49,038 nucleotides of DNA from Candidatus Flemingiibacterium sp. (GTDB lineage Bacteria > Bacillota > Clostridia > Oscillospirales > CAG-272), in contig JAZNLM010000004.1 of assembly GCA_045579105.1 (NCBI GenBank), positions 1 to 49,038 on the forward strand, written 5' to 3'. Below the pieces are notes generated by a model that saw only the letters and a list, made by a program, of their open reading frames with translations, was not told the origin of the DNA and did not search any database. Of this stretch, positions 29,545-48,600 are shown one piece after another; positions within the stretch are counted from its first letter, which is position 1; each line of letters starts with the position of its first letter. The position numbers and the translations under genes were made by a program.

Positions 29545-29547
29545 GAT

Positions 29548-29811: not shown

Positions 29812-29816
29812 TGGCT

Positions 29817-32661: not shown

Positions 32662-32681
32662 CAGATAGGAGAAAGAAAAAA

Positions 32682-33629
32682 ATGCAAAAGAAAGTTACAA
32701 TTATTGGCGCAGGCGCTGTTGGCTCTACTACCGCATTTGCACTGCTTGCACGCGGTGCGGCTTCCAAAGTCGTTTTAATTGACGTAAACACCGAAAAAGC
32801 GCTTGGCGAAGCACTTGACATCAAGCAAGCTACCCCCATTATCGGCAACTGCGATATTTACGCCGGAAGCTATGCTGATGCTGTTGACTCTGATGTTGTT
32901 ATCATCACATCGGGAATCGGAAGAAAACCCGGTCAGACGCGTCTTGAGCTTGTTCAGACCAATGTTGGTATCATTAAGGGCATCGCGCCTGAAATTGTCA
33001 AGGCGGCGCCGAACGCTCTCTACATACTTGTTGCTAACCCCGTTGATATTCTTACTTATGCATTCTTAAAATACACCGGTCTTCCGAAAAATCAGGTTTT
33101 CGGTACCGGTACTGTGCTCGACACTATCCGTCTTCGCACCCGCCTTGCGGAAATTTACAATGTAAACAAGCAGCAGGTTCACGCCAACGTGCTCGGCGAG
33201 CACGGCGACACGTCGTTTGTTGCCTGGTCCACCGCAACAATCGCAGGTGTTCCGCTGTCAGAGTATAACAGCGCTATTGCATCTTCCTATAAAATTCCCA
33301 ATGAGTACAAGCGCGAGGACGTTGAAACTTACGTGAGAAAGTCCGGCGGAAAAATCATTGCCCGCAAGGGTTGCACCGTATACGGTATCGGAATGACCTC
33401 AACTCATATTGTGCAGGCAATCAGCGGCAGCGCGGAAACTGCTATGACTGTATCCTCGCTTCACGAAGGTGAATACGGAATCAGCGATGTTTGCCTCAGC
33501 TCGCTTTCTCTTGTTGACCACACCGGCGTTCGTTCCATTCTCACACAGAAGCTCACAGACGAGGAGCATAAGAAGCTGCTTCAGTCCGCAGAAGCTCTTA
33601 AGGCTGTTATAAACAGCGTAACCTTCTAA
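32682..33629 (+). CDS. mdh: LDH/MDH family dehydrogenase, probably malate dehydrogenase
   Basis: GAGAVG, GIGRKPGQTRLEL (Arg at LDH position 102), NPVD, LDTIR, GEHGDT; context with fumC and pckG. Confidence 0.75.
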   Translation: MQKKVTIIGAGAVGSTTAFALLARGAASKVVLIDVNTEKALGEALDIKQATPIIGNCDIYAGSYADAVDSDVVIITSGIGRKPGQTRLELVQTNVGIIKGIAPEIVKAAPNALYILVANPVDILTYAFLKYTGLPKNQVFGTGTVLDTIRLRTRLAEIYNVNKQQVHANVLGEHGDTSFVAWSTATIAGVPLSEYNSAIASSYKIPNEYKREDVETYVRKSGGKIIARKGCTVYGIGMTSTHIVQAISGSAETAMTVSSLHEGEYGISDVCLSSLSLVDHTGVRSILTQKLTDEEHKKLLQSAEALKAVINSVTF

Positions 33630-33641
33630 AAAGGAAAATTT

Positions 33642-35072
33642 ATGAGAAAATTTGATACAAAAGTACAGCATCTTAAATATAAGGTACTACGCGAGGTTGC
33701 CAAGCTCGCATGGAACGATACTCTGCTCGATAATATGATGGATATTCCGAAAAGACTTATTTCGGGCAAAGAACCCACGATGCGCTGCTGTGTTTATAAA
33801 GAACGTGCAATCCTCGGAGAACGCGTAAAGATTGCTATGGGCGGCGACAAAAGCAATCCCAACGTAATTGAGGTTATCGAAATTGCCTGTGATGAATGTC
33901 CTGTAGGCGGATTTGAAGTAACACACGCCTGCCGCGGATGCCTCGCTCACCGCTGTGAGGATGTATGTAAATTCGGCGCAATTTCTTTCGATCACAACCA
34001 TGTGGCACACATTGATAAGTCAAAGTGTAAGGAATGCGGCGCATGCGCAAGGGTTTGTCCTTATACTGCAATAGTCAGCCGTAAGCGTCCGTGTCAGAAC
34101 GCCTGCAAAGTCAAGGCTATTTCTATGAATGAAGATAAGGCGGCGGCTATTGATAATTCAAAGTGTATTCAGTGCGGCGCATGCGTATATCAGTGTCCGT
34201 TCGGAGCAATCACTGATAAGTCGTACATAGTCAATGCCATTGACATACTCAAAAAGAGTGAACGAAATACACCCAGCGGTAGCTATAAAGTCTATGCCGT
34301 TGTTGCACCGTCAATTTCGAGTCAGTTCTCCTATGCAAAGCTCGGTCAAGTTGTTACGGGCCTTAAAAAGCTTGGCTTCCACGATGTTATAGAAGCGGCA
34401 CTCGGAGCTGATATGGTTGCAATGGCTGAGGCAAAGGAGATTTCCGAAAAGGGCCTTCTCACAAGTTCCTGCTGTCCATCTTTCGTTCAGTATATAAAGT
34501 CCGCATTCCCTGACCTTGTAGAGCACATCTCGCATAATATGTCACCTATGGCGGTGCTCGCAAAGTATATTAAGCAAACAACTCCAAACGCCAAGGTTAT
34601 TTTCATTGGTCCATGCACCTCTAAGAAGGCCGAAGCGCAGCTTGAAAGTGTGAAACCCTACGTTGACACGGTTCTTACCTTCGAAGAACTTCAGGCGCTG
34701 TTTGACAGCCGCGATATCGATATCGCATCGCTTGAAGTTGGCGTGCTTGATAACGCATCTTATTTCGGACGAATTTTTGCACGAAGCGGCGGTCTTTCCG
34801 ATGCGGCAGCTCAGGCAATCAAGGAACAGAACATCGGCTTCGAGTTGAAGCCGGTTGTGTGTGACGGAATTGAAGCTTGCCGTATGGCGCTGTTAAAACT
34901 CAGCAAGGGTGTGCTTGACGGAAACTTTATCGAAGGTATGGCATGTGTAGGCGGTTGTATCGGCGGTGCAGGATGTCTTACACACGGCGAAAAGAACAAG
35001 TCTGAGGTTGACAAATACGGCAAAGAAGCACTTGAAAAAACTATCGGAGATGCCGTATCGGTTCTGAAATAA
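33642..35072 (+). CDS. hfsD: group B ferredoxin-type [FeFe]-hydrogenase (HfsD/HydA2-like)
   Basis: RCCVYKERAI, multiple 4Fe-4S motifs, TSSCCPSF, GPCTSKKAE, EGMACVGGCIGG. Confidence 0.9.
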   Translation: MRKFDTKVQHLKYKVLREVAKLAWNDTLLDNMMDIPKRLISGKEPTMRCCVYKERAILGERVKIAMGGDKSNPNVIEVIEIACDECPVGGFEVTHACRGCLAHRCEDVCKFGAISFDHNHVAHIDKSKCKECGACARVCPYTAIVSRKRPCQNACKVKAISMNEDKAAAIDNSKCIQCGACVYQCPFGAITDKSYIVNAIDILKKSERNTPSGSYKVYAVVAPSISSQFSYAKLGQVVTGLKKLGFHDVIEAALGADMVAMAEAKEISEKGLLTSSCCPSFVQYIKSAFPDLVEHISHNMSPMAVLAKYIKQTTPNAKVIFIGPCTSKKAEAQLESVKPYVDTVLTFEELQALFDSRDIDIASLEVGVLDNASYFGRIFARSGGLSDAAAQAIKEQNIGFELKPVVCDGIEACRMALLKLSKGVLDGNFIEGMACVGGCIGGAGCLTHGEKNKSEVDKYGKEALEKTIGDAVSVLK

Positions 35073-35110
35073 TAATTCTCAATTAAATATATTTGAAAGG
35101 GTAATTAAAG

Positions 35111-36487
35111 ATGGAATACCGTATTGAACATGACTCTATGGGTGAGGTAAAGGTTCCCACTGATAAGCTTTGGGCTGCCCAGACGCAGAGAAGTCATGAG
35201 AATTTTGAAATCGGTGTGGGAATTGAAACCATGCCCCGCGAGATTGTTCACGCGTTCGGAATACTTAAGAAGGCCGCGGCTCTCGCAAATCATGAACTTA
35301 AGCCTGAAAAGATGACAAAAGAAAAGGTTGAAGCAATCTGTGCGGCGTGCGACGAGGTTATCGAAGGAAAGCTTATGGAGCACTTCCCTCTCGTTGTATG
35401 GCAGACCGGCTCTGGTACGCAGTCCAATATGAACTCCAATGAGGTTATCAGAAACCGCGCAAATCAGATTATCGGCAAAGAGTTAACTCACCCCAACGAT
35501 GACATAAATATGTCGCAGTCTTCAAACGACACTTTCCCGACGGCGATGCATATATCGGCTGTTATTGCAATCGAAGACAAGCTTATCCCCGCTGTGGAAC
35601 AGCTTATTGATACGCTTAAACGCCTTGAGGCAGAAAATGAGGGCATCGTTAAGTCCGGACGTACACATCTTCAGGATGCAACTCCCATAAAGTTCTCGCA
35701 GGAAATCTCCGGCTGGAGAAGTTCACTTGAACGCGACGTTGAGCTTTTAAGACTTGCCGTAAAGCCGCTTTATGAGCTTGCGCTCGGCGGTACTGCTGTT
35801 GGTACCGGTCTTAATGCGCCGAAGGGATTTGACACACTTGTTGCAAAGAAGTGCGCAGAGCTTACCGGTAAGCCGTTCGTTACCGCACAGAATAAGTTCC
35901 ACGCGCTTACATCGAAGGACGAGCTTGTATTCGCGCACGGCGCAATCAAGGCGACTGCGGCAGATATGATGAAAATTGCAAACGACGTACGTTGGCTTGC
36001 ATCCGGTCCTCGTGATGGTCTTGGCGAAATTTTCATTCCCGAAAACGAGCCGGGTTCTTCTATTATGCCCGGTAAGGTTAACCCCACCCAGTGCGAGGCT
36101 GTTACTATGGTGGCTGTTCAGGTTATGGGTAATGACGTTGCAGTTGGTATGGCGGCATCGCAGGGTAATTTCGAGCTTAACGTATTTATGCCCGTAGCGG
36201 CGTACAATTTCCTTCAGTCCGCAAGACTTCTATCAGAGGCTATAGTTTCCTTCAACAAGAACTGTGCTGTGGGAATCAAGGCAAACAAGGAAAAGATGCA
36301 TCACAATCTTCACAATTCGCTTATGCTCGTAACTGCGCTCAATCCCTACATCGGCTACGAGAACGCGGCAAAGACCGCAAAGAAGGCGTACAAGGACAAC
36401 ATTTCGCTGAAAGAAGCTTGTGTTGAGCTTGGTTTCCTCACCGCCGAAAAGTTCGACGAGGTGTTCCATCCCGAACAGATGGTTTAA
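35111..36487 (+). CDS. fumC: class II fumarate hydratase
   Basis: WQTGSGTQSNMN, SQSSNDTFPT, GRTHLQDATP, GSSIMPGKVNPTQCE. Confidence 0.96.
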   Translation: MEYRIEHDSMGEVKVPTDKLWAAQTQRSHENFEIGVGIETMPREIVHAFGILKKAAALANHELKPEKMTKEKVEAICAACDEVIEGKLMEHFPLVVWQTGSGTQSNMNSNEVIRNRANQIIGKELTHPNDDINMSQSSNDTFPTAMHISAVIAIEDKLIPAVEQLIDTLKRLEAENEGIVKSGRTHLQDATPIKFSQEISGWRSSLERDVELLRLAVKPLYELALGGTAVGTGLNAPKGFDTLVAKKCAELTGKPFVTAQNKFHALTSKDELVFAHGAIKATAADMMKIANDVRWLASGPRDGLGEIFIPENEPGSSIMPGKVNPTQCEAVTMVAVQVMGNDVAVGMAASQGNFELNVFMPVAAYNFLQSARLLSEAIVSFNKNCAVGIKANKEKMHHNLHNSLMLVTALNPYIGYENAAKTAKKAYKDNISLKEACVELGFLTAEKFDEVFHPEQMV

Positions 36488-36504
36488 TACAGGGAGGGTA
36501 ATAA

Positions 36505-37287
36505 ATGAAAGTAACATATTTTCCCGGCTGTACATTAAAGAACAAGGCACGGGATCTTGATGAATATGCAAAAAAATCCGCAGAGGTGCTTGGTGTAACC
36601 TTAGAGGAGCCTGAAATGTGGCAGTGCTGTGGCGGCGTATTTACAACTGCAAACGATGAGGTTGCCACAAAGCTTTCCTCTGTGCGTCTGCTCCGCGCCG
36701 CAAAGGCTGCAAATCAGCCGCTCGTAACCGTTTGCTCGGCATGTCACAACGTTGTAAAGCAGACAAATTATGCTATGAAAAACGATTCCGTTTTTGCCGA
36801 TCGCGTTAACCGTTATATGTCAGAAGAAACACCGTACAACGGCGAGGCAACAGTTTATCACTATCTTGAGCTTCTCCGTGACGTTGTCGGATTTGACAAC
36901 GTTGCAAAGGCAGTCAAAAAGCCGCTGGAAGGCAAAAAGATCGGTGCGTATTACGGTTGTCTGCTTCTTCGTCCCGGCAAGGTACTTGGCATGGACGATC
37001 CCGAAAATCCGCGCATACTCGAAGACCTCATCCGCGCACTCGGCGGTGAGCCTGTAATTTACGCAAGACGCAACGAGTGCTGCGGTGCATATGTTTCTGT
37101 GGAATCTCCTATAACAGCAGAGAGAAACAGCAACAAGATTATAGATAACGCAGTATCTGTGGGCGCAGATATGCTTGTAACAGCTTGTCCGCTTTGCAAG
37201 TACAATCTTGAAAAACACAGCGATAAACTCCCCGTAGTTTACTTTACAGAGCTTCTTGCCGAGGCGCTTGGTATAAAGGAGGACTAA
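36505..37287 (+). CDS. hdrB: heterodisulfide reductase subunit B (CCG domains)
   Basis: YFPGC, QCCGG, CSAC, YYGCLLLRP, ECCGA, ACPLC. Confidence 0.9.
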   Translation: MKVTYFPGCTLKNKARDLDEYAKKSAEVLGVTLEEPEMWQCCGGVFTTANDEVATKLSSVRLLRAAKAANQPLVTVCSACHNVVKQTNYAMKNDSVFADRVNRYMSEETPYNGEATVYHYLELLRDVVGFDNVAKAVKKPLEGKKIGAYYGCLLLRPGKVLGMDDPENPRILEDLIRALGGEPVIYARRNECCGAYVSVESPITAERNSNKIIDNAVSVGADMLVTACPLCKYNLEKHSDKLPVVYFTELLAEALGIKED

Positions 37288-37288
37288 A

Positions 37289-37675
37289 ATGAAGAGTAAC
37301 GAACTTAAAAACGAAATCCTTCGTATCAGCGGTGTTAATGTAAGAAAATGTATGAAGTGCGGAAAGTGCTCGGCATCTTGCCCCGCATATAATGAGATGG
37401 AGTATCATCCTCATCAGTTTGCATCTATGATAGACAACGGCGAGATTGAGCCGCTCCTTGATTCCGATTCACTTTATCGCTGTCTGTCGTGCTTTACATG
37501 TATAGAACGTTGTCCTCGCGGTGTTGAGCCCGCAAAGCTTATTGAAGCGGTACGTCTTACCGCTGTGAGAAAGCAGGGCGCAAACCGTATGAAGGCCGAT
37601 GACGTTCCTTCAATTCTTGACGAAAATATCCCCGGACAGCTGCTTGTCAGTGCGTTCCGTAAATATACGAAATAA
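37289..37675 (+). CDS. hdrC: heterodisulfide reductase subunit C (2x4Fe-4S)
   Basis: CMKCGKCSASCP, CLSCFTCIERCP. Confidence 0.88.
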   Translation: MKSNELKNEILRISGVNVRKCMKCGKCSASCPAYNEMEYHPHQFASMIDNGEIEPLLDSDSLYRCLSCFTCIERCPRGVEPAKLIEAVRLTAVRKQGANRMKADDVPSILDENIPGQLLVSAFRKYTK

Positions 37676-37692
37676 AGAAAGGAGAAGTTACC

Positions 37693-39690
37693 ATGCAGAG
37701 AATAGGCGTATTTGTATGTTGGTGCGGTTCGAATATTGCAGGAACAGTTGATGTTCACGCCGTTGCCGAGGCGCTTAAAACTGAAGTCGGTGTGGTCTTT
37801 TCCACCGATTACCAATATATGTGCTCCCAGGCGGGACAAGATATCATCAAGAATGCCATCGACGAACATAAACTAACCGGTATCGTTGTCTGCTCCTGCT
37901 CACCGCGTATGCACGAGGCAACATTCCGCAAGACCGCGGCTGCCGCAGGTCTTAACCCCTATATGGTGGAGATTGCCAATATCCGTGAGCAGTGTTCTTG
38001 GGTACATAAAGATATGATGACAGGCACTGAGAAGGCAATCATTCTGGGTAAAGCCGCTATCGCAAAGGTTAATCTTAATGCGCCCCTTACCCCCGGGCAG
38101 TCGCCCGTTACCAAGCGTGCGCTCGTTATCGGCGGCGGTATTGCCGGTATACAGACCGCGCTTGATATTGCCGACGCGGGTTTCCCTGTTGACATAGTTG
38201 AAACCAAACCTACCATCGGCGGTAAGATGGCACAGCTTGACAAAACCTTCCCGACGCTCGACTGCGCAGCCTGCATCCTCACTCCTAAAATGGTTGATGC
38301 CGCACAGAATGAGAAGATTAAGATTTACTCCTATAGTGAGGTTGCAGAGGTTACCGGTTACGTCGGCAACTTCGATGTAAAAATCAAGCGCAAGGCTCGC
38401 TATGTTAAGGAAGATATCTGTACCGGATGCGGACTTTGCACCGAAAAATGTCCGCAGAAGAAGGTTCCCAATGAGTTCAACCTCGGTATGGACAACCGCC
38501 GTGCGATATATATTCCGTTCGCGCAGGCAGTACCGAAGGTTGCTACAATCGATGCAAACTACTGCACGATGCTGAAGACCGGCAAATGCGGCGTATGCGC
38601 AAAGGTATGTACCGCAGGCGCTATCGATTATAACGCAAAGGACGAATACATCACCGAGAAATACGGTGCAATCGTCGTTGCGACCGGTTACAATCCCATT
38701 TCGATGGATAAATTCGACGAGTTCGCATACAGTCAGAGCAAGGACGTTATTACATCTCTCGAATTTGAGCGTCTTACAAATGCTGCAGGTCCTACAGCCG
38801 GTAAGCTTCTGCGCCCTTCCGACGGAGTACATCCGCACACTATCGTTTTCGTACAGTGTGTTGGCTCGAGATGCGAAAACTGTGCAGAAAAGGGCAAGGA
38901 ATATTGCTCGAAGATCTGTTGTATGTACACTGCAAAGCACGCAATGCTCACCCGTGACAAATATCCGGATACCGATGTTTATGTATTCTACATTGATGTA
39001 CGTACTCCCGGTAAGGCATTTGACGAGTTCTATCGCCGTGCTGTTGAGGAATATGGCGTACATTACGTCAAGGGTATGGTAGGAAAGGTTGTTCCCGAGG
39101 GCAATAAGCTCAAGGTTCAGGCTTCTGACCTCATAAACGGTAAGCAGCTCCATATCGATGCTGACCTCGTTGTTCTTGCGGCGGCAATTGAGCCTGACAA
39201 GTCGGCCCGTCCGCTCGCTACAATGCTCACCGCATCTATGGATACGAATGATTTCTTCACCGAAGCACATCCCAAGCTTCGTCCTGTAGAATCTCCCACG
39301 GCAGGCGTGTTCCTTTCCGGCGCGTGCCAGGGACCGAAGGATATTCCCGAAACCGTATCTCAGGCAGGTGCGGCGGCAAGTAAGGTAATCGGTCTACTCT
39401 GCAAGGATCATCTGACCGGTAACCCGTGTATAGCTTCGTCGAATGAGATGATGTGTAACGGCTGTTCGAGCTGTGAGCGCGTATGCCCATACGGTGCTAT
39501 CACATACGAGGAAAAGGAATTCAGAATGCCCGATCGTACGACAAGAAGACGTCGTGTTGCATCTGTTAATCCCGCGGTTTGCCAGGGATGCGGTGCTTGT
39601 ACCGTGGCTTGCCCCTCGGGCGCAATGGATCTTAATGGATTTAAAAACAATCAGATCATGGCGGAGGTAGATGCAATATGCAAGATGTAA
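37693..39690 (+). CDS. hdrA: heterodisulfide reductase subunit A (bifurcating flavoprotein)
   Basis: RIGVFVCWCG.NI, NIREQCSWVH, GGGIAG, LDKTFPTLDC, LEFERL, CSKICCMYTAK, GACQGPKDIP. Confidence 0.95.
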   Translation: MQRIGVFVCWCGSNIAGTVDVHAVAEALKTEVGVVFSTDYQYMCSQAGQDIIKNAIDEHKLTGIVVCSCSPRMHEATFRKTAAAAGLNPYMVEIANIREQCSWVHKDMMTGTEKAIILGKAAIAKVNLNAPLTPGQSPVTKRALVIGGGIAGIQTALDIADAGFPVDIVETKPTIGGKMAQLDKTFPTLDCAACILTPKMVDAAQNEKIKIYSYSEVAEVTGYVGNFDVKIKRKARYVKEDICTGCGLCTEKCPQKKVPNEFNLGMDNRRAIYIPFAQAVPKVATIDANYCTMLKTGKCGVCAKVCTAGAIDYNAKDEYITEKYGAIVVATGYNPISMDKFDEFAYSQSKDVITSLEFERLTNAAGPTAGKLLRPSDGVHPHTIVFVQCVGSRCENCAEKGKEYCSKICCMYTAKHAMLTRDKYPDTDVYVFYIDVRTPGKAFDEFYRRAVEEYGVHYVKGMVGKVVPEGNKLKVQASDLINGKQLHIDADLVVLAAAIEPDKSARPLATMLTASMDTNDFFTEAHPKLRPVESPTAGVFLSGACQGPKDIPETVSQAGAAASKVIGLLCKDHLTGNPCIASSNEMMCNGCSSCERVCPYGAITYEEKEFRMPDRTTRRRRVASVNPAVCQGCGACTVACPSGAMDLNGFKNNQIMAEVDAICKM

Positions 39691-40115
39691 AAGAGTTCAA
39701 GCCCCTTATCGTTGCGTTCTGCTGTAATTGGTGTTCGTATGCAGGCGCAGACCTTGCAGGAAGTAATCGCCTTGCTTATCCGGCTGACGTAAAAATCATT
39801 CGCGTACCCTGCTCCTGCAGAGTTAACCCTATGTTTATTCTTCGCGCATTCCAGCGAGGTGCAGATGGCGTAATCCTGTGCGGATGCCATCCCGGTGACT
39901 GCCATTATTCCACCGGTAACTACTACACACGACGCCGTATGTCGATGCTCTTCTCTATGCTCGATTATCTCGGCATTGAACGCGACCGTACCCGTGTTGA
40001 ATGGGTATCCGCGGCAGAAGGTGCAAAGTTTGCGGCTACAATGAACGATTTCGTAGAAAAAGTTACGGCACTTGGCCCGAACAAGAGATTGGAGGATCTG
40101 CGATGCAAACAGTAA
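39678..40115 (+). CDS. flxD: MvhD/FlxD 2Fe-2S subunit
   Basis: AFCCNWCSYAGADLAG, RVPCSCRV, GCHPGDCHY. Confidence 0.9.
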   Translation: MQDVKEFKPLIVAFCCNWCSYAGADLAGSNRLAYPADVKIIRVPCSCRVNPMFILRAFQRGADGVILCGCHPGDCHYSTGNYYTRRRMSMLFSMLDYLGIERDRTRVEWVSAAEGAKFAATMNDFVEKVTALGPNKRLEDLRCKQ

Positions 40116-41101
40116 CAACTAAATCATTATGCGAGCGCGCGGCATCCTTGCTCGGTGACGGCACCGTTGCCGCTGTTCTCGGATGGAAGCGCGGTGAGTT
40201 TGACTACGATATGACTCCCGCTGTATTCACTACAACAGAGGAACTCGCAGACGGCTTTATTTACAACGATTTTTGCGGCGCAAATCTTTCGAAATATCTT
40301 CTTAAGAAAACCCGTGAGATTGAAGGCAAGATTCTCGTATTTTTAAAGCCCTGTGATACATACAGCTTTAATCAGCTCCTTTGCGAGCACCGCTTTGATC
40401 GCGAAAAGGTATACGCCATCGGCATTCCCTGCAACGGTATGGCTGACATTCACCGTATCCGTGAGATCACCGGCGAAGGTATCTCGAAAATCGAGCAGAA
40501 CGGTGATTCACTCCTTGTTCAACCCCTCTACGATGACGAGCCTAAAGCAGTTAAATGTACTGACGTACTCGCGGAGCGCTGTGTGAACTGCAAGTCGAGA
40601 AAGCACGTCGCATACGACGAGCTTATCGGCGACGAAGGCGAAGTGCTTTCCTCCGACCGTTTCGATGAGGTTAAGAAAATCGAAGCTATGAGTGCCGACG
40701 AGCGTTTTGCATTCTGGCAGAACGAGCTTTCGCGCTGCATCCGCTGCAACGCTTGCCGTGATGCTTGTCCTGCGTGCACTTGCGAAAAGTGTGTATTCGA
40801 CAACCCCGACTCCGGCGTTGAGAGCAAGGCCCCCGGTGGAGAATTCGAAGAAAAGCTGTTCCACATCATCCGTGCATATCATGTTGCTGGAAGATGTACC
40901 GACTGCGGTGAATGCTCGCGAGTATGCCCGCAGAATATACCGCTTCACCTTCTCAACCGCAAGTTCATCAAGGATATGAATGCAACTTACGGTGAATATC
41001 AGGCAGGCGCAAGTACAGATCAGCGTGCCCCGCTTGTAAACTTCACACAGGACGATCCCGAACCTTCCGACGTTGTGAAAGGAGGATGCGACCATGCGTA
41101 A
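40103..41101 (+). CDS. flxC: FlxC-like 4Fe-4S protein
   Basis: KPCD, IGIPC, RCIRCNACRDACPACTC, RCTDCGECSRVCP; start ATG 40103 after GGAGG. Confidence 0.8.
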   Translation: MQTVTTKSLCERAASLLGDGTVAAVLGWKRGEFDYDMTPAVFTTTEELADGFIYNDFCGANLSKYLLKKTREIEGKILVFLKPCDTYSFNQLLCEHRFDREKVYAIGIPCNGMADIHRIREITGEGISKIEQNGDSLLVQPLYDDEPKAVKCTDVLAERCVNCKSRKHVAYDELIGDEGEVLSSDRFDEVKKIEAMSADERFAFWQNELSRCIRCNACRDACPACTCEKCVFDNPDSGVESKAPGGEFEEKLFHIIRAYHVAGRCTDCGECSRVCPQNIPLHLLNRKFIKDMNATYGEYQAGASTDQRAPLVNFTQDDPEPSDVVKGGCDHA

Positions 41102-42119
41102 ATGTTCGTTAGCTAATATAGATAAGCTTTTTGAAGCAGCTTCGGCATCTATGTCGCTCTACCTTCCCGCAGAAGAAAAGAACGGCGCCGTTTATACCAA
41201 GTGGCAGCCCGGTGTGGTTTGGAGTAATGTCGGAAACACCGTAAGAGGTCCCAAGGATTTATTCTTCCCCCAGAGTGAAGACCTTATGGCGTTCAAGACA
41301 GAGGGCAAGAAGATCGAGGTTATTGACACAAGAAGCGAAGCCGAGGATTTTGCCATCTTCGGTGTACGTGCGTGTGATATAAAAAGCCTTGAAGTACTCG
41401 ACCGCGTGTTCCTTTCCGAGCCATGCGATAGCTACTATGCTTCCCGCCGCGAGCACGGAACTATTATTTCGCTTGCTTGCAACCGTCCCACAGAAAATTG
41501 CTTCTGCGGTACGTTTGGTATCGACGCTTCCGAGCCTTCGGGCGATGTAAGCACGTGGATCGCCGGTGATGCACTTTACCTTAGTGCAAATACCGAGCGA
41601 GGCGAAGCTTTTATGAAGCTTATTTCAGGTGTCACCGAAGAATGTGACGATACCGCGGTAAACGCGGAGAAGGAAAAAATTCAGAACATTATGAAGCGCC
41701 TTCCCCTTGCTGACCTTAAGGCAGATGCCTTTGGCGGCGGTAAGACTGAAGAATTCTTTAATTCTCCCGAGTGGTCAAAGCTTTCCGAAGCTTGCCTTGG
41801 ATGCGGTACCTGCACCTTTGTTTGCCCCACTTGCCAGTGCTACGATATCCGTGACTACAAGACAAACAGCGGCGTAGTACGCTACCGTTGCTGGGACTCT
41901 TGTATGTACTCGCAGTTCACGAGAATGGCGCACGGTAACAACCGTAATTCGCAGAAGGAACGCTTCCGTCAGCGTTTTATGCACAAGCTTGTATATTTCC
42001 CCGAAAACAACGACGGAGTGTTCTCATGCGTGGGATGCGGAAGATGCCTTGCGAAGTGTCCTATCTCCATGAATATTGTTAAGGTTATGAAAGCATTGGA
42101 GGGTAAAAACAATGGCTGA
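41094..42119 (+). CDS. flxB: FlxB/AsrA-like 4Fe-4S protein
   Basis: GVRACD, CFC, CLGCGTCTFVCPTCQC, WDSC, RQRFMHKL, CVGCGRC..CP. Confidence 0.82.
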   Translation: MRKCSLANIDKLFEAASASMSLYLPAEEKNGAVYTKWQPGVVWSNVGNTVRGPKDLFFPQSEDLMAFKTEGKKIEVIDTRSEAEDFAIFGVRACDIKSLEVLDRVFLSEPCDSYYASRREHGTIISLACNRPTENCFCGTFGIDASEPSGDVSTWIAGDALYLSANTERGEAFMKLISGVTEECDDTAVNAEKEKIQNIMKRLPLADLKADAFGGGKTEEFFNSPEWSKLSEACLGCGTCTFVCPTCQCYDIRDYKTNSGVVRYRCWDSCMYSQFTRMAHGNNRNSQKERFRQRFMHKLVYFPENNDGVFSCVGCGRCLAKCPISMNIVKVMKALEGKNNG

Positions 42120-42945
42120 AATGAATGAAACTTTAATTCCCGTTGTGGGCGTTATCACTGATGTCCGCATAGATACCCCCGACATCAAGACCTTCCGTGT
42201 CGTTACTCCTGACGGTAAAAAGCCGTTTGATCACAGACCGGGACAATGTGCTATGCTGTCTGTTCCCGGTGTCGGCGAAGCGATGTTTTCCATCACCTCT
42301 TCCCCCACAAACACAGAGTATATGGAGTTTTCCATTAAGAAATGCGGATGTGTTACCGAGTGGCTTCACGCCGCAGAAGTAGGTCAGATGATTACCGTCC
42401 GCGGTCCTTACGGTAAACCCTTCCCTGTTGACGACGTATTCGCAGGCCACGATATGCTCTTTATTGCCGGAGGTGTTGGACTCGCTCCGCTTCGCTCGGT
42501 TATAAACTACTGCCGTCACTACCGTGACAGATACGGCCGCATCGATATTGTTTACGGCTCACGTTCAAAGGACGATCTTCTTGATTACAAGGAAATCATA
42601 GAAGAATGGCAGAATGACGAAAACGTTCACGTTCATCTGACGATCGACCGTGAGCAGGAGGGTTGGGACGGACACGTTGGCTTCGTTCCGAACTACGTCA
42701 AGGAGCTTGGATTTGATACTAATAAAATGGCAGTTCTTTGCGGACCTCCGATCATGATTAAATTCACATTAGAAGGGCTTTCTGCTCTCGGCTTTGATAA
42801 GACGCAGGTATATACAACTCTTGAACTTCGTATGAAGTGCGGTGTCGGCAAGTGCGGTCGCTGCAACGTTGGTGCGAAGTATGTATGCAAGGACGGTCCG
42901 GTTTTCCGCTGTGATGAGTTGGATGAGCTTCCGGATGAATATTGA
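42112..42945 (+). CDS. flxA: FlxA/AsrB-like FAD/NAD-binding oxidoreductase with 2Fe-2S
   Basis: PGQ, VRGPYG, AGGVGLAPLRS, CGPPIM, MKCGVGKCGRC, VCKDGPVF. Confidence 0.85.
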   Translation: MAEMNETLIPVVGVITDVRIDTPDIKTFRVVTPDGKKPFDHRPGQCAMLSVPGVGEAMFSITSSPTNTEYMEFSIKKCGCVTEWLHAAEVGQMITVRGPYGKPFPVDDVFAGHDMLFIAGGVGLAPLRSVINYCRHYRDRYGRIDIVYGSRSKDDLLDYKEIIEEWQNDENVHVHLTIDREQEGWDGHVGFVPNYVKELGFDTNKMAVLCGPPIMIKFTLEGLSALGFDKTQVYTTLELRMKCGVGKCGRCNVGAKYVCKDGPVFRCDELDELPDEY

Positions 42946-42966
42946 TAATTAGGAGAATTGAACACT

Positions 42967-43641
42967 ATGGAAAATATGGTGAATATTTACCTCTACGGTA
43001 AAAAATACGAAGTTCCGGCCAGCCTTACCATTATAAACGCCATGGAATACGCAGGATACCAGCTGGTTCGCGGAGTTGGCTGCCGCTGCGGCTTCTGCGG
43101 CGCGTGTGCTACTATATACCGCATAAAGGGACAGCAGGAACTTAAGACTTGCCTTGCTTGCCAGACCAAGGTTGAAGATAATATGTATATTGCAACTCTT
43201 CCCTTCTTCCCGCTTGTAAAGCAGCCCTATGACATTAAGAAGGTAAAGCCCACCGAGCAGATTATGATGCAGCTCTATCCCGAAATTTACGCTTGTATCG
43301 GCTGCAACGCCTGCACTAAGGCCTGCACTCAGGAGCTTAACGTAATGCAGTATATCGCATATGCGCAGAGAGGCGACTTTGAAAAGTGCGCTGAAGAATC
43401 CTTCGACTGTGTAATGTGCGGTGTATGCTCTTCACGTTGCCCCGCAGGTATTACTCATCCGCAGGTAGGTCTTCTCGCAAGACGTCTTAACGGAAAGTAT
43501 CTTGCGCCCGAAACAAAACATCTTCTTGACCGCGTTGCCGAGATCGAAGCCGGTGATTGCGAGGCGGCTCTTCAGGATATTATGAAGAAAACTGCCGAAG
43601 AACTCAAAGAGATGTATAACAACCGCGATTTCGAGAAATAA
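42967..43641 (+). CDS. fumarate reductase Fe-S subunit (2Fe-2S + 2x4Fe-4S)
   Basis: GCRCGFCGAC..CLAC, CIGCNACTKAC, CVMCGVCSSRCP; adjacent to flavoprotein. Confidence 0.8.
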   Translation: MENMVNIYLYGKKYEVPASLTIINAMEYAGYQLVRGVGCRCGFCGACATIYRIKGQQELKTCLACQTKVEDNMYIATLPFFPLVKQPYDIKKVKPTEQIMMQLYPEIYACIGCNACTKACTQELNVMQYIAYAQRGDFEKCAEESFDCVMCGVCSSRCPAGITHPQVGLLARRLNGKYLAPETKHLLDRVAEIEAGDCEAALQDIMKKTAEELKEMYNNRDFEK

Positions 43642-43654
43642 GGAGGGCTGACAA

Positions 43655-45304
43655 ATGTATACTAAAGAAATGCTTGAATCCATCAAAAAGGTGGAAGCAA
43701 CCCGTGATGCGCGTCTTCAGGCGGTACTTGCAGGCAACCATCCCCGCCGTATGACTGCCGAAGAAAAGGATCAGGTCCTTCTCGAAAACCATCCCGATCA
43801 TATTAAGTCCCAGTTTGCAGAGCTTGCTATCGGTCCCAACAAGGGCGAAAAGGTTCCGCTTGAACTCGCTGAAATTCTACAGGCAAATCCCAGAGTTAAT
43901 CCTGCTGATATTGATCTTACCAAAATTGACTACGATGTTGACGTTCTCGTAATCGGCGGCGGCGGAGCAGGTTCTGCGGCAGCTATTATGGCTCACGAAA
44001 ACGGCGCAAACGTAATGATAGTTACCAAGCTCCGTCATGGTGGCGCTAACACTATGATGGCAGAGGGCGGTATTCAGGCGGCTGATAAGCCTAACGACAG
44101 CCCCGCACAGCACTATCTCGACGTTATGGGCGGCGGTCACTTTAAGAACGTTCCCGAGCTTGTTTACAAGCTTGTAAACGATGCTCCCGGATGCATCAAG
44201 TGGCTCAATGACCTTGGTGTAATGTTCGATAAGGAAGCTGACGGTACTATGGTAACCACCCACGGCGGCGGTACGTCCAGAAAGCGTATGCACGCTTGTA
44301 AGGACTACTCCGGTGCGGAGATAATGAGAGTTCTCCGTGACGAGGTTCAGAACAGACAGATTCCCGTCGTTGATTTCACATCGGCTATCGAAATAATCAA
44401 GGACGAAAACGGTAAGGCTGCAGGTGCAGTTCTTATGAACATGGAAACCAAGGAACTGCTTATTGCAAAGGCAAAGACTGTAGTAATCGCAACGGGCGGT
44501 GCGGGCCGCATGCACTACCAAGGCTTCCCGACATCCAACCACTACGGCGCAACCGCAGATGGACTTGTTCTTGCCTACAGAGCAGGCGCTCCTCTGCTTT
44601 ACGCTCACACGCTTCAGTATCACCCCACCGGTGCGGCGTTCCCCTCGCAGATATTTGGTGCACTCGTAACCGAAAAGGTTCGTTCTATCGGTGCACAGCT
44701 TATCAATGCCAACGGTGAAGCATTTATGTATCCGCTTGAAACCCGTGACGTATGCGCATCGAGCGTTATACGCGAGTGCCGCAGAGGCAACGGTGTCGAC
44801 ACCTTCGACGGCGGTCAGGGTATTTGGCTTGACTCTCCGATGATTGACCTTATCCACGGCGAGGGCACTATTGAGAAAAGAATCCCCGCTATGCTTCGCA
44901 TGTACCTCAAGTACGGTATCGATATGCGTAAGCAGCCGATTCTTATTTACCCCACTCTCCACTATCAGAACGGTGGTATCAAGATCGGCGAGAACGGCAT
45001 GTCCGAGGTTGAAAACCTCTTTGTTGCAGGTGAAGCGGTCGGCGGTATTCACGGAGAGAACAGACTCATGGGTAACTCTTTGCTTGATATCATCGTATTC
45101 GGTCGCAACGCAGGAGTTAACGCGGCTACTGCGGCAAAGAAGACTGACGGCACAGCAAAGCTTTCCCTCTCGCACGTTGATGATTTTGTTAAGGAAATGG
45201 CAGATGCAGGCATTAAGACTGATGTTGTTTCTCCGAAGCTTCTCCCTCGTTACACCCACGGAAATCCTGTGTACGATGAGCCCAACGCGAAGCTTATGAA
45301 ATAA
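43655..45304 (+). CDS. frdA: soluble fumarate reductase flavoprotein (FrdA/TfrA-like)
   Basis: GGGGAG, AEGG, ATGG, QYHPTG, TEKVR, TRD, HYQNGG, HGENRLMGNSL. Confidence 0.85.
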   Translation: MYTKEMLESIKKVEATRDARLQAVLAGNHPRRMTAEEKDQVLLENHPDHIKSQFAELAIGPNKGEKVPLELAEILQANPRVNPADIDLTKIDYDVDVLVIGGGGAGSAAAIMAHENGANVMIVTKLRHGGANTMMAEGGIQAADKPNDSPAQHYLDVMGGGHFKNVPELVYKLVNDAPGCIKWLNDLGVMFDKEADGTMVTTHGGGTSRKRMHACKDYSGAEIMRVLRDEVQNRQIPVVDFTSAIEIIKDENGKAAGAVLMNMETKELLIAKAKTVVIATGGAGRMHYQGFPTSNHYGATADGLVLAYRAGAPLLYAHTLQYHPTGAAFPSQIFGALVTEKVRSIGAQLINANGEAFMYPLETRDVCASSVIRECRRGNGVDTFDGGQGIWLDSPMIDLIHGEGTIEKRIPAMLRMYLKYGIDMRKQPILIYPTLHYQNGGIKIGENGMSEVENLFVAGEAVGGIHGENRLMGNSLLDIIVFGRNAGVNAATAAKKTDGTAKLSLSHVDDFVKEMADAGIKTDVVSPKLLPRYTHGNPVYDEPNAKLMK

Positions 45305-45364
45305 TTTCGCACAGTGTACTGTACGAATGCGTTTCTATAGTAACGCCTAAAGAATTAAACAAAC

Positions 45365-45397
45365 ACAAGGCCTTCTCAATATAGGAGAGGGCTTTGT
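45365..45397 (+). terminator. stem-loop after frdA (weak terminator or stability hairpin)
   Basis: acaaggccttctc...gagagggctttgt, poor U-tract. Confidence 0.45.
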
Positions 45398-45475
45398 CAG
45401 GGTTTAAATCTATAAGTGTAAATAATTTTCAGATTATTACAAAAATCAACAGCAAAAATATTTCAGGAGAAAAAA

Positions 45476-46705
45476 ATGAAGATTTTTGAATTTTTTGACG
45501 GAAAATTTAATCTTAATATAAGCGGAATTTCCTTTCTCGTATTTTCCGTACTAGCTATTGCCGCAGTTGGATATTTACTTGGCAGAGTAACTATCAAAGG
45601 TGTTAGCCTTGGTACCGCGGGTGTTTTCCTTATCGCTTTACTCTACGGTTGCCTCTTCTACGGGAATCTTGGAGCACAGACTGCTGAATATACAACAAAC
45701 GCTCTGAAAATAATCGAAAATATCGGTCTTATGCTCTTCGTAACATCGGTAGGATTCATAGCAGGTCCCAAGTTCTTTGGAAATCTTAAAAAGAACTTCA
45801 AGACCTACATCCTCCTCGGCCTTTTGATCATCGTGTCCGGTGCATTGGTATGTGCAGGCTGCATTGCATTTGCGAAAGTTACCATGAAAGATGTTCCCGT
45901 AGAGGAGCTTACGGCTATTATGACCGGTCTCTTCTCAGGCGCACTTACTTCTACCCCCGCCTTTTCTGCGGCTAAAGAGGCTATTGGCAGTGAATACGCA
46001 AGCTACGTAGCCGTTGGAAACGGCATCGCATATATCTTCGGCGTCATCGGAGTTGTTCTCTTTGTTCAGCTTATTCCGAAGTTTGTAAAAGCTGATATGG
46101 CAAAGGAACGTGCGAAGCTCGATGAAAGTGACGGAAACGCTGAAGACCCTGTAGATGCGGCTGTCGCGGAGAAGCTTATAACCATTGATTCCTTCGGAAT
46201 TGCCCCCTTCGCAATTGCCTCTATCATTGGTCTTCTCGTCGGAAGCATCAAAATCGGCGCATTCTCGCTGACCACCACCGGCGGTTATCTTCTTATTTCG
46301 CTTGTATTCGGACACTTCGGACGTATGGGCAAGATAAACCTTATGCCCCCCGCTGCAACTCTTAGGGTTTTCCGTGAGTTCGGACTTATGCTTTTCCTCA
46401 TCGGTGCAGGAATTGCAGGCGGCGCAAAATTTATCGAGTGCTTCCAGCCGGTTTACTTCCTCTATGGTGCACTTATGACTATCATTCCTATGATAGTTGG
46501 TTTCTTATTTGCAAAGTACGTTCTTAAATTAAGCCTTCTTAACAATCTCGGCTCTATCACGGGCGGCATGACTTCCACACCCGCGCTTGGAACCCTTATC
46601 AATGTAGCAGGCACTGAAGACGTTGCAGCGGCTTATGCGGCAACTTATCCTATCGCACTTGTCGCTGTTGTACTGGCCTCGCAATTCCTTATTATGATAT
46701 TTTAA
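45476..46705 (+). CDS. AspT/YidE/YbjL family transporter, probable succinate exporter
   Basis: duplicated domains with GALTSTPAF and GGMTSTPAL, GLMLFV..VG..AGPKF, YAATYP. Confidence 0.85.
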   Translation: MKIFEFFDGKFNLNISGISFLVFSVLAIAAVGYLLGRVTIKGVSLGTAGVFLIALLYGCLFYGNLGAQTAEYTTNALKIIENIGLMLFVTSVGFIAGPKFFGNLKKNFKTYILLGLLIIVSGALVCAGCIAFAKVTMKDVPVEELTAIMTGLFSGALTSTPAFSAAKEAIGSEYASYVAVGNGIAYIFGVIGVVLFVQLIPKFVKADMAKERAKLDESDGNAEDPVDAAVAEKLITIDSFGIAPFAIASIIGLLVGSIKIGAFSLTTTGGYLLISLVFGHFGRMGKINLMPPAATLRVFREFGLMLFLIGAGIAGGAKFIECFQPVYFLYGALMTIIPMIVGFLFAKYVLKLSLLNNLGSITGGMTSTPALGTLINVAGTEDVAAAYAATYPIALVAVVLASQFLIMIF

Positions 46706-46739
46706 ATAGATTTCAAGATTAAACATCAGAGGTATAGTT

Positions 46740-48562: not shown

Positions 48563-48600
48563 AAGCAATGCCGTCATTTCCGACGGCATTGCTTATTTTT
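48563..48600 (+). terminator. intrinsic terminator after pckG
   Basis: aagcaatgccgtc...gacggcattgctt followed by attttt. Confidence 0.85.

What the first reader, a model, noticed from the sequence alone, without database searches (positions are those of the whole stretch)
36505..45304. Soluble, probably electron-bifurcating NADH:fumarate/ferredoxin oxidoreductase with no evident disulfide carrier
Seen: FrdA keeps the fumarate-site residues (QYHPT His, TEK Glu, TRD Arg, HYQNGG His, ENRL Arg). It has ANTMMAEGG where covalent-FAD enzymes have SHTxxAxGG, implying non-covalent FAD and the reductase direction. No FrdC/D membrane anchor is present. The Fe-S subunit lacks the CCG domains of methanogen TfrB, while a separate HdrB with two CCG motifs is present. 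HdrA keeps the Glu (LEFER) and Lys (CCMYTAK) that flank the bifurcating flavin in methanogen HdrA. No DsrC-like gene is in the cluster. Inference: either direct electron transfer from Hdr to FrdB, or an unknown thiol/disulfide shuttle in a non-methanogen, non-sulfate-reducer.
Basis: partly seen in the sequence, partly recalled or inferred. Interest (0 to 1): 0.7.

Follow-up and report, generated by a model that had tools for sequence, protein, structure and literature searches.

The report
Hdr/Flx-wired soluble fumarate reductase operon
A gut Clostridia genome carries a nine-gene operon that joins a soluble fumarate reductase to an NADH-oxidising, probably electron-splitting Hdr/Flx complex; this arrangement has been proposed in print but never tested biochemically, and it turns out to be very common in Clostridia.

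Summary
Window 36505-45304 encodes HdrB-HdrC-HdrA-FlxD-FlxC-FlxB-FlxA-FrdB-FrdA on one strand with tight or overlapping junctions. MDH, an [FeFe] hydrogenase and fumarase lie upstream. A putative succinate exporter and GTP-PEPCK lie downstream.

The idea is not new. The same 'succinate operon' was proposed as a ferredoxin-reducing fumarate reductase in Pseudoclostridium thermosuccinogenes (PMC7282089). A tfrAB-flx-hdr cluster was proposed likewise in tubeworm symbionts (PMC6315080, PMC11636981). I found no biochemical proof in the library searched.

New here:
- All nine genes are colinear in 54 of 54 related loci with enough DNA.
- An FrdB orthologue occurs in 97 of 399 sampled genomes of the class.
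- No DsrC was found in the window's own genome or in 5 other carriers, and the operon's HdrB is the only CCG protein in the own genome.
- A complex prediction places FrdB on HdrB/HdrC (score 0.88, best control 0.00), with cluster-ligand cysteines of both partners at the interface.

This favours direct Fe-S wiring over a thiol shuttle. Bifurcation itself remains inferred.

The parts
36505..37287 (+). HdrB: two CCG domains, 10 invariant Cys (C9, C41, C42, C77, C80, C152, C192, C193, C228, C231). Predicted docking site for FrdB.
   Evidence: Pfam CCG 90 bits, 2 stretches. NCBIfam SdhE 146.9 and HdrB 139.7 bits, both below cut-off. Invariant Cys in 49 sequences. Interface residues 9, 12-13, 38-41, 54-58, 104-107.
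37289..37675 (+). HdrC: two CxxCxxCxxxC(P) motifs. Its C-terminal tail is predicted to touch FrdB.
   Evidence: Fer4_8/Fer4_17. HdrC models 57-66 bits. Invariant Cys. Contacts at residues 103-127.
37693..39690 (+). HdrA: FAD plus Fe-S subunit, the presumed bifurcating flavoprotein.
   Evidence: Colinear with 5odc_A, residues 3-661 against 5-648, 684 bits. HdrA2 model 779.8 bits.
39678..40115 (+). FlxD (MvhD-like).
   Evidence: Pfam FlpD 186.5 bits.
40112..41101 (+). FlxC: Fe-S protein. The GTG start at 40112 is assumed; the longest ORF starts at 40001.
   Evidence: Fer4_8 and related families. Orthologue present in all 54 complete loci.
41094..42119 (+). FlxB: AsrA / sulfhydrogenase-beta-like Fe-S protein.
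   Evidence: Fer4_22 105 bits. ShyB 175 bits.
42112..42945 (+). FlxA: NAD(P)H- and FAD-binding subunit with a [2Fe-2S] domain.
   Evidence: NAD_binding_1, FAD_binding_6 and DHODB_Fe-S_bind.
42958..43641 (+). FrdB-like Fe-S subunit (likely start ATG 42967). Four invariant Cys of a [2Fe-2S] motif plus two full CxxCxxCxxxC motifs. No CCG domain.
   Evidence: Alignment of 61 sequences. AF2 model pLDDT 93.5. The five best Foldseek hits are FrdB/SdhB chains, with prob 1.00 but TM about 0.3.
43655..45304 (+). FrdA-like flavoprotein, 549 aa. It has a 95-aa N-terminal extension, Asn in place of the covalent-FAD His, and no Succ_DH_flav_C domain.
   Evidence: FAD_binding_2 229 bits. TfrA model 337 bits, covering 6-411 of 546, below the cut-off of 718. 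Alignments. AF2 pLDDT 76.8, N-extension confident. Foldseek best hit E. coli FrdA 1kf6_A.
35111..36487 (+). Class II fumarase, 18 nt upstream of hdrB.
   Evidence: Lyase_1 364.7 bits and FumaraseC_C.
32682..33629 (+). Malate/lactate dehydrogenase-family protein, read as MDH from its context.
   Evidence: Ldh_1_N and Ldh_1_C.
33642..35072 (+). Monomeric [FeFe] hydrogenase with ferredoxin-like domains. A possible outlet for reduced ferredoxin.
   Evidence: Fe_hyd_lg_C 212.6 bits.
45476..46705 (+). Asp-Al_Ex (AspT/YidE/YbjL) family transporter, putative succinate exporter.
   Evidence: Pfam 201 bits. A relative lies downstream in 51 of 80 loci.
46740..48545 (+). GTP-dependent PEP carboxykinase, followed by a strong terminator-like hairpin at 48563-48594.
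   Evidence: PEPCK_GTP 536 bits. Hairpin of 13-14 pairs.

Best explanation
The nine genes encode one cytoplasmic complex, FlxABCD-HdrABC-FrdAB.

Proposed electron path. NADH is oxidised at FlxA. Electrons pass through FlxB/C/D to the FAD of HdrA, where the pair is split. The low-potential electron leaves through HdrA's ferredoxin-type clusters to ferredoxin. The high-potential electron runs from HdrC to the non-cubane clusters of HdrB. From there it passes directly, with no thiol/disulfide carrier, into the [4Fe-4S]/[2Fe-2S] chain of FrdB and on to the non-covalent FAD of FrdA, which reduces fumarate to succinate. The net reaction would be 2 NADH + Fd(ox) + fumarate -> 2 NAD+ + Fd(red) + succinate.

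Physiology. With PEPCK, MDH and fumarase, the locus forms a PEP-to-succinate branch. Its reduced ferredoxin can be re-oxidised by the hydrogenase encoded in the operon or by Rnf.

Shown here: gene content, conserved residues, synteny, absence of DsrC, and a predicted FrdB-HdrBC interface. Inferred: NADH as donor, bifurcation, stoichiometry, and electron hopping between HdrB and FrdB.
For: 1. Domain content of all nine proteins. HdrA is colinear with the bifurcating HdrA of 5odc at 684 bits.
2. FrdA keeps H323, E340, R364, H436 and R470 and has N132 instead of the FAD-linking His. All are invariant in 36 orthologues.
3. All nine genes are colinear in 54 of 54 loci with at least 7.3 kb upstream. 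The 26 loci cut by contig ends hold every gene that fits.
4. DsrC gives 0 hits in the own genome and 0 of 5 other carrier genomes. The only CCG protein in the own genome is this HdrB. In 2 of the 5 other genomes likewise only the operon copy was found.
5. Complex prediction of HdrB + HdrC + FrdB: score 0.88, best of 3 controls 0.00. This mark was reached by 116 of 157 solved complexes and 2 of 215 mismatched pairs. The runs agree in at least 93% of contacts and the partner's pLDDT is at least 80. The interface includes HdrB C9 and C41, and FrdB 108-114, which holds C110 and C113.
6. HdrB interface residues W39, Q40 and Y104 are invariant in 49 Frd-linked HdrBs. The corresponding residues are A-S and E in the 5 solved methanogen HdrBs, which also carry a 2-residue insert after the CC motif.
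7. Natural FrdB-FrdA and FlxA-FrdB fusions place these subunits in one complex.
8. RnfC is present in the genome. No menA was found. The only strong FAD_binding_2 proteins are this type.
9. The same hypothesis was reached independently in print (PMC7282089, PMC6315080, PMC11636981: passages read).
Against: - No biochemical or expression datum for this organism.
- The complex score is the model's own confidence. The calibration used pairs of single chains and other alignments, and only one of several possible FrdB partners was tested.
- None of the 25 longer relatives of FrdB carries a CCG domain. Eleven are FlxA-FrdB fusions, one of them (P0284) with only 6 residues between the FlxA and FrdB parts. 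A direct FlxA-to-FrdB path is therefore not excluded.
- The genome is 87% complete, so absences (DsrC, menA, a second CCG protein) are provisional.
- Three of the 5 other carrier genomes have one further CCG protein.
- HdrB keeps all 10 cluster cysteines, so a disulfide-reductase site may still be functional.
Confidence: 0.6

Rival explanations
1. Non-bifurcating NADH:fumarate reductase. The Fe-S proteins only wire NADH (FlxA) to FrdAB, possibly straight from FlxA to FrdB, and no ferredoxin is reduced.
For: - FlxA-FrdB fusions make up 11 of the 25 longer relatives of FrdB. P0284 has only 6 residues between the FlxA and FrdB parts.
- Soluble NADH-dependent fumarate reductases exist, for example the five-subunit enzyme of Hydrogenobacter thermophilus (PMC13147460, passage read).
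Against: - A complete HdrA with every domain of the bifurcating enzyme, plus HdrB, HdrC and FlxB/C/D, is kept in 54 of 54 loci. That is seven extra genes with no role in a simple wire.
- FrdB is predicted to sit on HdrB/HdrC.
- About 14 tail residues of FlxA plus the linker could span a long distance, so the fusion only shows membership of one complex. This is inference.
Confidence: 0.2
2. Thiol shuttle. Flx-Hdr reduces an unknown disulfide (a small molecule or a protein other than DsrC), and the thiol then reduces fumarate through FrdAB, as in methanogen thiol:fumarate reductase.
For: - HdrB keeps all 10 Cys of the two non-cubane clusters.
- FrdA's best family model is TfrA.
- The published model for Endoriftia leaves a DsrC-like carrier open (PMC11636981, passage read).
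Against: - FrdB has no CCG domain with which to oxidise thiols.
- The own genome has no second CCG protein and no DsrC.
- DsrC is absent in 5 of 5 other carriers.
- The predicted FrdB docking covers the first CCG motif of HdrB.
Confidence: 0.1
3. The flavoprotein is not a fumarate reductase. It would be an L-aspartate oxidase or a reductase of another enoate, with the Hdr/Flx link serving that reaction.
For: The NadB models score nearly as high as the SdhA/FrdA models (265.8 against 269.1 bits). FAD is predicted to be non-covalent, as I recall it is in NadB.
Against: - Below the NadB cut-off (265.8 against 452.75), and TfrA is the best model.
- A dedicated FrdB-like subunit is adjacent, and fused to the flavoprotein in relatives.
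- Fumarase sits 18 nt upstream, with MDH, PEPCK and a transporter of the Asp-Al_Ex family in the same gene row.
- Fumarase is kept next to the module in 37 of 80 loci and MDH in 41 of 80.
Confidence: 0.04
4. Reverse operation. Succinate oxidation is driven by reduced ferredoxin (confurcation) to make NADH.
For: Flavin-based bifurcating enzymes are reversible in principle (general knowledge).
Against: - Asn replaces the His needed for covalent FAD. By established work on E. coli FrdA (recalled), covalent FAD is required for succinate oxidation.
- The context is a fermentative PEP-to-succinate branch with an exporter-type transporter.
Confidence: 0.03

Closest known systems
'Succinate operon' of Pseudoclostridium thermosuccinogenes (Koendjbiharie et al. 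2020, PMC7282089, passages read; Koendjbiharie & van Kranenburg 2019 preprint, not held, seen only as a citation)
   Same: As described in the paper, the gene list is the same: fumarate hydratase, seven Flx-Hdr genes, two fumarate reductase genes, then a putative succinate transporter. The pathway is the same (GTP-PEPCK, MDH, fumarase, FR). The proposal that succinate formation is coupled to ferredoxin reduction is the same.
   Different: Sequence orthology to that organism was not tested here. This window adds MDH, an [FeFe] hydrogenase, a Rex/HydS/PP2C sensor block and PEPCK in the same gene row. The paper speaks of electrons going to 'ferredoxin (and thiols)'. Here direct FrdB-HdrB docking is predicted.
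tfrAB interspersed with flxABCD-hdrABC in the rTCA clusters of tubeworm symbionts and Thioflavicoccus mobilis (PMC6315080, PMC11636981, PMC13147460; passages read)
   Same: An AB-type soluble fumarate reductase co-located with Flx-Hdr. The proposal is the same, that NADH electrons are split between fumarate and ferredoxin. The same open question is stated: direct transfer or a DsrC-like carrier.
   Different: Those are autotrophic Gammaproteobacteria, with korABCD inserted between the hdr genes and a role in carbon fixation. Here the host is a fermentative Clostridia genome with a contiguous nine-gene module. Sequence relation was not tested.
FlxABCD-HdrABC of Desulfovibrio vulgaris (Ramos et al. 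2015; recalled, and cited in the papers read)
   Same: All seven subunit types are present.
   Different: The proposed acceptor there is DsrC. No DsrC gene was found here, and FrdAB is encoded in the operon instead.
Thiol:fumarate reductase TfrAB of Methanothermobacter (Heim et al. 1998; recalled, and cited in PMC6315080)
   Same: TfrA is the best-scoring family model for FrdA. The TfrB model is matched in pieces by three proteins: FrdB (positions 17-92), HdrC (123-220) and HdrB (262-487). TfrB therefore looks like a fusion of the modules that are predicted to dock here.
   Different: FrdA scores 337 bits against a cut-off of 718, lacks the C-terminal third of the model, and has a 95-aa N-terminal extension. 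FrdB has no CCG domain. The donor there is CoM-SH plus CoB-SH.
MvhAGD-HdrABC of methanogens (5odc and later structures)
   Same: HdrA, HdrB and HdrC are colinear with the solved subunits. MvhD is present.
   Different: The donor module is FlxABC (NADH), not a hydrogenase. HdrB differs at the predicted FrdB-contact surface: WQCCGG against ASCCPAPG. The acceptor is fumarate via FrdAB, not a heterodisulfide.
Type E succinate:quinone reductase / 8-methylmenaquinol:fumarate reductase SdhABE, with a CCG-domain SdhE subunit
   Same: A CCG protein sits next to an SdhB-like subunit. SdhE is the best NCBIfam hit of this HdrB, at 146.9 bits. FrdB has two full four-Cys motifs. That this also holds for type E SdhB is recalled, not tested.
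   Different: The score is far below the cut-off of 500. No quinone or membrane link is evident, and no menA was found.
Soluble NADH-dependent fumarate reductase FrdABCDE of Hydrogenobacter thermophilus (Miura et al. 2008; not held; described in PMC13147460)
   Same: A soluble, multi-subunit, NADH-dependent enzyme with an FrdA-like flavoprotein.
   Different: Five subunits, and not reported to reduce ferredoxin. Its relation to the present subunits was not tested.

Membership tests
Flx-Hdr-linked AB-type fumarate reductase (P. thermosuccinogenes / Endoriftia type, a proposed kind) | frdA- and frdB-like genes in one gene row with hdrABC and flxABCD | tested here: met
   Conserved in 54 of 54 complete related loci.
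Flx-Hdr-linked AB-type fumarate reductase (P. thermosuccinogenes / Endoriftia type, a proposed kind) | Fumarase and a putative succinate transporter flank the module | tested here: met
   Description in PMC7282089 (passages).
Flx-Hdr-linked AB-type fumarate reductase (P. thermosuccinogenes / Endoriftia type, a proposed kind) | Sequence orthology to the published operons | not tested
   No sequence of those organisms was among the 80 loci kept.
Flx-Hdr-linked AB-type fumarate reductase (P. thermosuccinogenes / Endoriftia type, a proposed kind) | Fumarate-dependent reduction of ferredoxin by NADH | not testable with these tools
   This needs an enzyme assay. It is not shown in the papers read either.
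FlxABCD-HdrABC (Desulfovibrio type) | HdrA, HdrB (2 CCG), HdrC, MvhD-like FlxD, Fe-S FlxB/C, and NAD(P)H/FAD/[2Fe-2S] FlxA | tested here: met
FlxABCD-HdrABC (Desulfovibrio type) | DsrC as disulfide acceptor encoded in the genome | tested here: not met
   PF04358 gives 0 hits in the own genome (87% complete) and in 0 of 5 other carriers.
Thiol:fumarate reductase TfrAB | TfrA equivalog score and full length | tested here: not met
   337.3 bits against a cut-off of 718. Profile positions 6-411 of 546 are matched.
Thiol:fumarate reductase TfrAB | Fe-S subunit carries two CCG domains | tested here: not met
   No CCG match in FrdB. None in the 61 aligned relatives or the 25 longer relatives.
Quinol:fumarate reductase / succinate dehydrogenase (complex II) | Flavoprotein fold and dicarboxylate-site residues | tested here: met
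Quinol:fumarate reductase / succinate dehydrogenase (complex II) | His for covalent 8-alpha-histidyl FAD | tested here: not met
   N132 aligns to the His of E. coli SdhA and M. smegmatis Sdh1. It is invariant.
Quinol:fumarate reductase / succinate dehydrogenase (complex II) | C-terminal Succ_DH_flav_C domain | tested here: not met
   No Pfam match. The protein ends about 70 residues after FAD_binding_2.
Quinol:fumarate reductase / succinate dehydrogenase (complex II) | Membrane anchor subunit(s) and a quinone | tested here: inconclusive
   No anchor family among the neighbouring ORFs. No menA in the 87%-complete genome. Anchor families were not searched genome-wide.
L-aspartate oxidase (NadB) | NadB equivalog score | tested here: not met
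   TIGR00551 gives 265.8 bits against a cut-off of 452.75.
Type E SdhABE / MFR | SdhE equivalog score for the CCG subunit | tested here: not met
   NF042965 gives 146.9 bits against a cut-off of 500.

The most novel reading that the evidence does not exclude
HdrB here is not a disulfide reductase but a relay and docking subunit. The [4Fe-4S] loop of FrdB plugs onto the first CCG cluster of HdrB, so the high-potential branch of an Hdr-type bifurcating flavin is hard-wired to a C=C reductase with no thiol carrier. Because about a quarter of sampled species of this class carry the module, it would be a main route of succinate formation in gut Clostridia. It would also yield extra reduced ferredoxin, spent as H2 or used by Rnf.
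Probability: 0.45. Interest if true: 0.75.

Novelty: new member of a known kind. Interest (0 to 1): 0.5.

Why it matters
Fumarate is a strong electron acceptor, but bacteria without quinones cannot use it for respiration in the usual way. Splitting NADH electrons between fumarate and ferredoxin would let such fermenters gain reduced ferredoxin, and so H2 or an Rnf-driven ion gradient, from succinate formation. The module occurs in 97 of 399 sampled genomes of the class and in cultured Blautia, so the hypothesis bears on succinate and hydrogen fluxes in gut and rumen communities. It can be tested in organisms that grow in the laboratory. It would also be a case of an Hdr complex whose acceptor is wired in directly rather than being a disulfide.

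Tried and rejected
- RNA evidence: the look-up of sequencing runs for 36505-45304 listed no RNA holder.
- The 2019 preprint (10.20944/preprints201912.0288.v1) and Miura et al. 2008 (PMC2580677) are not held. What they say is known to me only through citing papers or recall.
- Searches for a biochemical demonstration found none in the held library. Searches returned only the P. thermosuccinogenes paper, the tubeworm-symbiont papers and unrelated work. 'bifurcating fumarate reductase' gave 0 papers. Subscription journals are mostly not covered.
- A Rosetta-stone FrdB-HdrB fusion was sought among longer relatives of FrdB. None of the 25 has a CCG domain.
- The Foldseek hits of the FrdB model to FrdB/SdhB chains have prob 1.00 but TM of only about 0.3. 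They support the domain order, not a close structural match.
- The promoter-like scan is at chance level (27 found against 27.4 expected) and was not used.

Full report
WHAT IS THERE. From about 29300 to 48545 the window carries an unbroken row of + strand genes with gaps of at most about 40 nt or short overlaps. The one exception is a 171-nt gap after the flavoprotein gene. Pfam and NCBIfam name them in order:
- a Rex-type repressor (28168-28851);
- two small thioredoxin-like [2Fe-2S] ferredoxins;
- a HydS-like [FeFe] hydrogenase with a PAS domain;
- a SpoIIE/PP2C phosphatase;
- a malate/lactate dehydrogenase-family protein;
- a monomeric [FeFe] hydrogenase;
- class II fumarase;
- HdrB, HdrC, HdrA, MvhD/FlxD, FlxC, FlxB and FlxA;
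- a 2Fe-2S plus dicluster protein ('FrdB');
- a 549-aa FAD_binding_2 protein ('FrdA');
- an Asp-Al_Ex family transporter;
- GTP-PEPCK.

A 13-14-pair terminator-like hairpin follows PEPCK at 48563-48594. The finding's coordinates, 36505-45304, are exactly hdrB to frdA.

In HMMER alignments to solved enzymes, N132 of ANTMMAEGG sits where E. coli SdhA and M. smegmatis Sdh1 have the His that carries FAD. H323, R364, H436 and R470 align to identical residues of E. coli SdhA. These residues and E340 are invariant in 36 orthologues. FrdA's best family model is methanogen TfrA, at 337 bits against a cut-off of 718. Only positions 6-411 of 546 are matched. There is no Succ_DH_flav_C domain and there is a 95-aa N-terminal extension. 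That extension folds with high confidence in an AlphaFold2 model (mean pLDDT 76.8, pTM 0.81). The model's best Foldseek hits are FrdA/SdhA chains.

FrdB has four invariant Cys in a [2Fe-2S] pattern and two complete CxxCxxCxxxC motifs, with no CCG domain. Its model has pLDDT 93.5. Its five best Foldseek hits are FrdB/SdhB chains, though with TM of only about 0.3. HdrB has two CCG domains with all ten Cys invariant in 49 sequences. HdrA is colinear with the bifurcating HdrA of 5odc (684 bits). The Glu of LEFER and the Lys after CCMYTA fall on positions 356 and 409 of that chain by my count on the alignment. That these residues flank the flavin is recalled from the structure paper, not tested.

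IT IS ALREADY IN PRINT AS A HYPOTHESIS. PMC7282089 (passages read) describes a 'succinate operon' in Pseudoclostridium thermosuccinogenes. It consists of fumarate hydratase, a seven-gene Flx-Hdr complex, a two-gene fumarate reductase and a putative succinate transporter. The operon is induced about 4-fold under CO2 limitation. [quoted passage not shown]

Independently, PMC6315080 and PMC11636981 (passages read) report tfrAB interspersed with flxABCD-hdrABC in the rTCA clusters of tubeworm symbionts. [quoted passage not shown] PMC13147460 repeats the idea. A 2024 bioRxiv preprint notes in passing an 'unusual' HdrA-Sdh/Frd link in Ruminococcus champanellensis. Eight full-text searches found no biochemical demonstration, but subscription journals are largely outside the library.

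(a) Conservation. The best 80 were kept, at 68-94% identity. They are mostly gut and rumen Clostridia, including Blautia schinkii, Blautia intestinihominis and Roseburia sp. CAG:303, plus one Spirochaetales MAG and one Planctomycetota MAG. In 54 of the 54 loci with at least 7.3 kb upstream, all nine genes are present and colinear. The other 26 are cut by contig ends and hold every gene that fits. A transporter relative follows in 51 of 80 loci. MDH and fumarase precede in 41 and 37 of 80.

(b) Prevalence. An FrdB profile found an orthologue (E <= 1e-20) in 97 of 399 evenly sampled genomes of the same class, counting the window's genome. Among high-quality genomes the figure is 85 of 350, and by genus 55 of 217. 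Two genomes were not scored. Among 1.84 billion 50%-identity representatives, FrdB has 132 relatives at E <= 1e-30 and 404 at E <= 1e-10.

(c) No carrier. DsrC (PF04358) is not found in the window's genome (1.68 Mb, 87% complete) nor in 5 of 5 other carrier genomes. The only CCG-domain protein in the own genome is the operon's HdrB. In the five others, two have only the operon copy and three have one further, larger CCG protein. A diffusible thiol made by HdrB would need a thiol-oxidising site on FrdAB, and FrdB has none.

(d) Predicted docking. With HdrB, HdrC and FrdB given as alignments, and HdrC included so that FrdB's HdrC-like dicluster domain could not simply take HdrC's place, the complex prediction scored 0.88 in three runs. 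All three controls scored 0.00. The mark was reached by 116 of 157 solved complexes and 2 of 215 mismatched pairs. The runs agree in at least 93% of contacts and the partner's pLDDT is at least 80. The tool warns that its calibration used single-chain pairs and other alignments, and that the score is the model's confidence, not a measurement.

The interface comprises three sets of residues. On HdrB they are 9, 12-13, 38-41, 54-58 and 104-107, which include C9 and C41 of the first CCG motif. On HdrC they are the C-terminal tail, 103-127. On FrdB they are 97-137 and 159-160 in the numbering of the 224-aa form, which include C110 and C113. No solved structure resembling an FrdB-HdrB pair was detectable by sequence. 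HdrB's contact residues W39, Q40 and Y104 are invariant in the Frd-linked family. In all five solved methanogen HdrBs the corresponding residues are Ala-Ser and Glu, and those proteins carry a two-residue insert after the CC pair. The NCBIfam TfrB model is matched piecewise by FrdB, HdrC and HdrB, so methanogen TfrB looks like a fusion of the modules predicted to dock here.

(e) Fusions. P0177 and six other longer relatives are FrdB-FrdA fusions. Eleven of the 25 longer relatives are FlxA-FrdB fusions, and none has a CCG domain. P0284 joins complete FlxA and FrdB parts with only six residues between them. This places FlxA, FrdB and FrdA in one complex.

(f) Physiology. The genome has RnfC (482 bits) and no menA. 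It has no classical SdhA/FrdA: the only strong FAD_binding_2 hits are this gene and a paralogue on a 2.2-kb contig.

HOW IT MOST LIKELY WORKS. NADH (E0' about -320 mV) lies far below fumarate/succinate (about +30 mV). Established work on HdrA, Bcd-Etf and related enzymes shows that such a gap can drive reduction of ferredoxin (about -450 mV) by flavin-based bifurcation. I therefore read the module as FlxABCD-HdrABC-FrdAB catalysing 2 NADH + Fd(ox) + fumarate -> 2 NAD+ + Fd(red) + succinate. The high-potential electron would pass HdrC -> HdrB -> FrdB -> FrdA without a thiol. Reduced ferredoxin could leave as H2, through the hydrogenase encoded between MDH and fumarase, or feed Rnf. Gene content, residues, synteny, absence of DsrC and the predicted interface are shown. 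The donor, the bifurcation, the stoichiometry and the cluster-to-cluster hop are inferred. I give this 0.6.

The rivals are:
- a non-bifurcating NADH:fumarate reductase (0.2);
- a thiol shuttle (0.1);
- another substrate, such as L-aspartate (0.04);
- reverse operation (0.03).

VERDICT. This locus is a new member of it. The added value is threefold: the breadth of the module in Clostridia, the consistent lack of a DsrC-type carrier, and a concrete, testable docking model for direct wiring. Interest 0.5.

Noticed in passing
window 28168-32661 (+): A Rex-type repressor (Put_DNA-bind_N + CoA_binding), two thioredoxin-like [2Fe-2S] ferredoxins (29302-29544, 29548-29811), a HydS-like sensory [FeFe] hydrogenase with a PAS domain (29808-31496) and a PP2C/SpoIIE phosphatase (31489-32661) lie directly upstream on the same strand. 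This suggests NADH/NAD+ and H2 sensing control the succinate branch. A similar HydS block in Ruminococcus albus is recalled, not checked.
   Followed up: partly
window 33642-35072 (+): A monomeric [FeFe] hydrogenase is inserted between MDH and fumarase. Where both were found in the related loci, MDH and fumarase sit next to each other. The only HydA-like hit among the 80 loci is a 29%-identity match downstream in L044.
   Followed up: partly
L081 (G000 contig C49, 2252 bp): 386-2020 (-), and 2007-2249 (-): A second FrdA (544 aa, 67% identical, with the same N-terminal extension) is preceded by the 3' end of a second frdB, on a tiny contig. It could be a true second copy, a strain variant or a binning contaminant.
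   Followed up: partly
P0284, P0275 and nine other clusters: Natural FlxA-FrdB fusion proteins of 485-548 aa exist in metagenomes. In Blautia schinkii (L071) and L026 the two genes are separate.
   Followed up: partly
genome of L034 (Roseburia sp. CAG:303), G004:C110:131267-131491 (-): The first CCG domain of the operon's HdrB is interrupted by one in-frame TGA. Whether this is a broken gene, an assembly error or a recoded codon was not examined.
   Followed up: no
window 2246-16251: A capsule/cell-wall polysaccharide locus: Polysacc_synt_2, LytR_cpsA_psr, sortase, CpsB/CapC, a Wzz-type protein, UDP-GlcNAc 2-epimerase and an ABC-2 exporter.
   Followed up: no
window 45304-45476: The only sizeable intergenic gap in the gene row (171 nt) lies between frdA and the transporter gene. 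A palindromic hairpin sits at 45306-45327, and the scan called it on the minus strand only.
   Followed up: no
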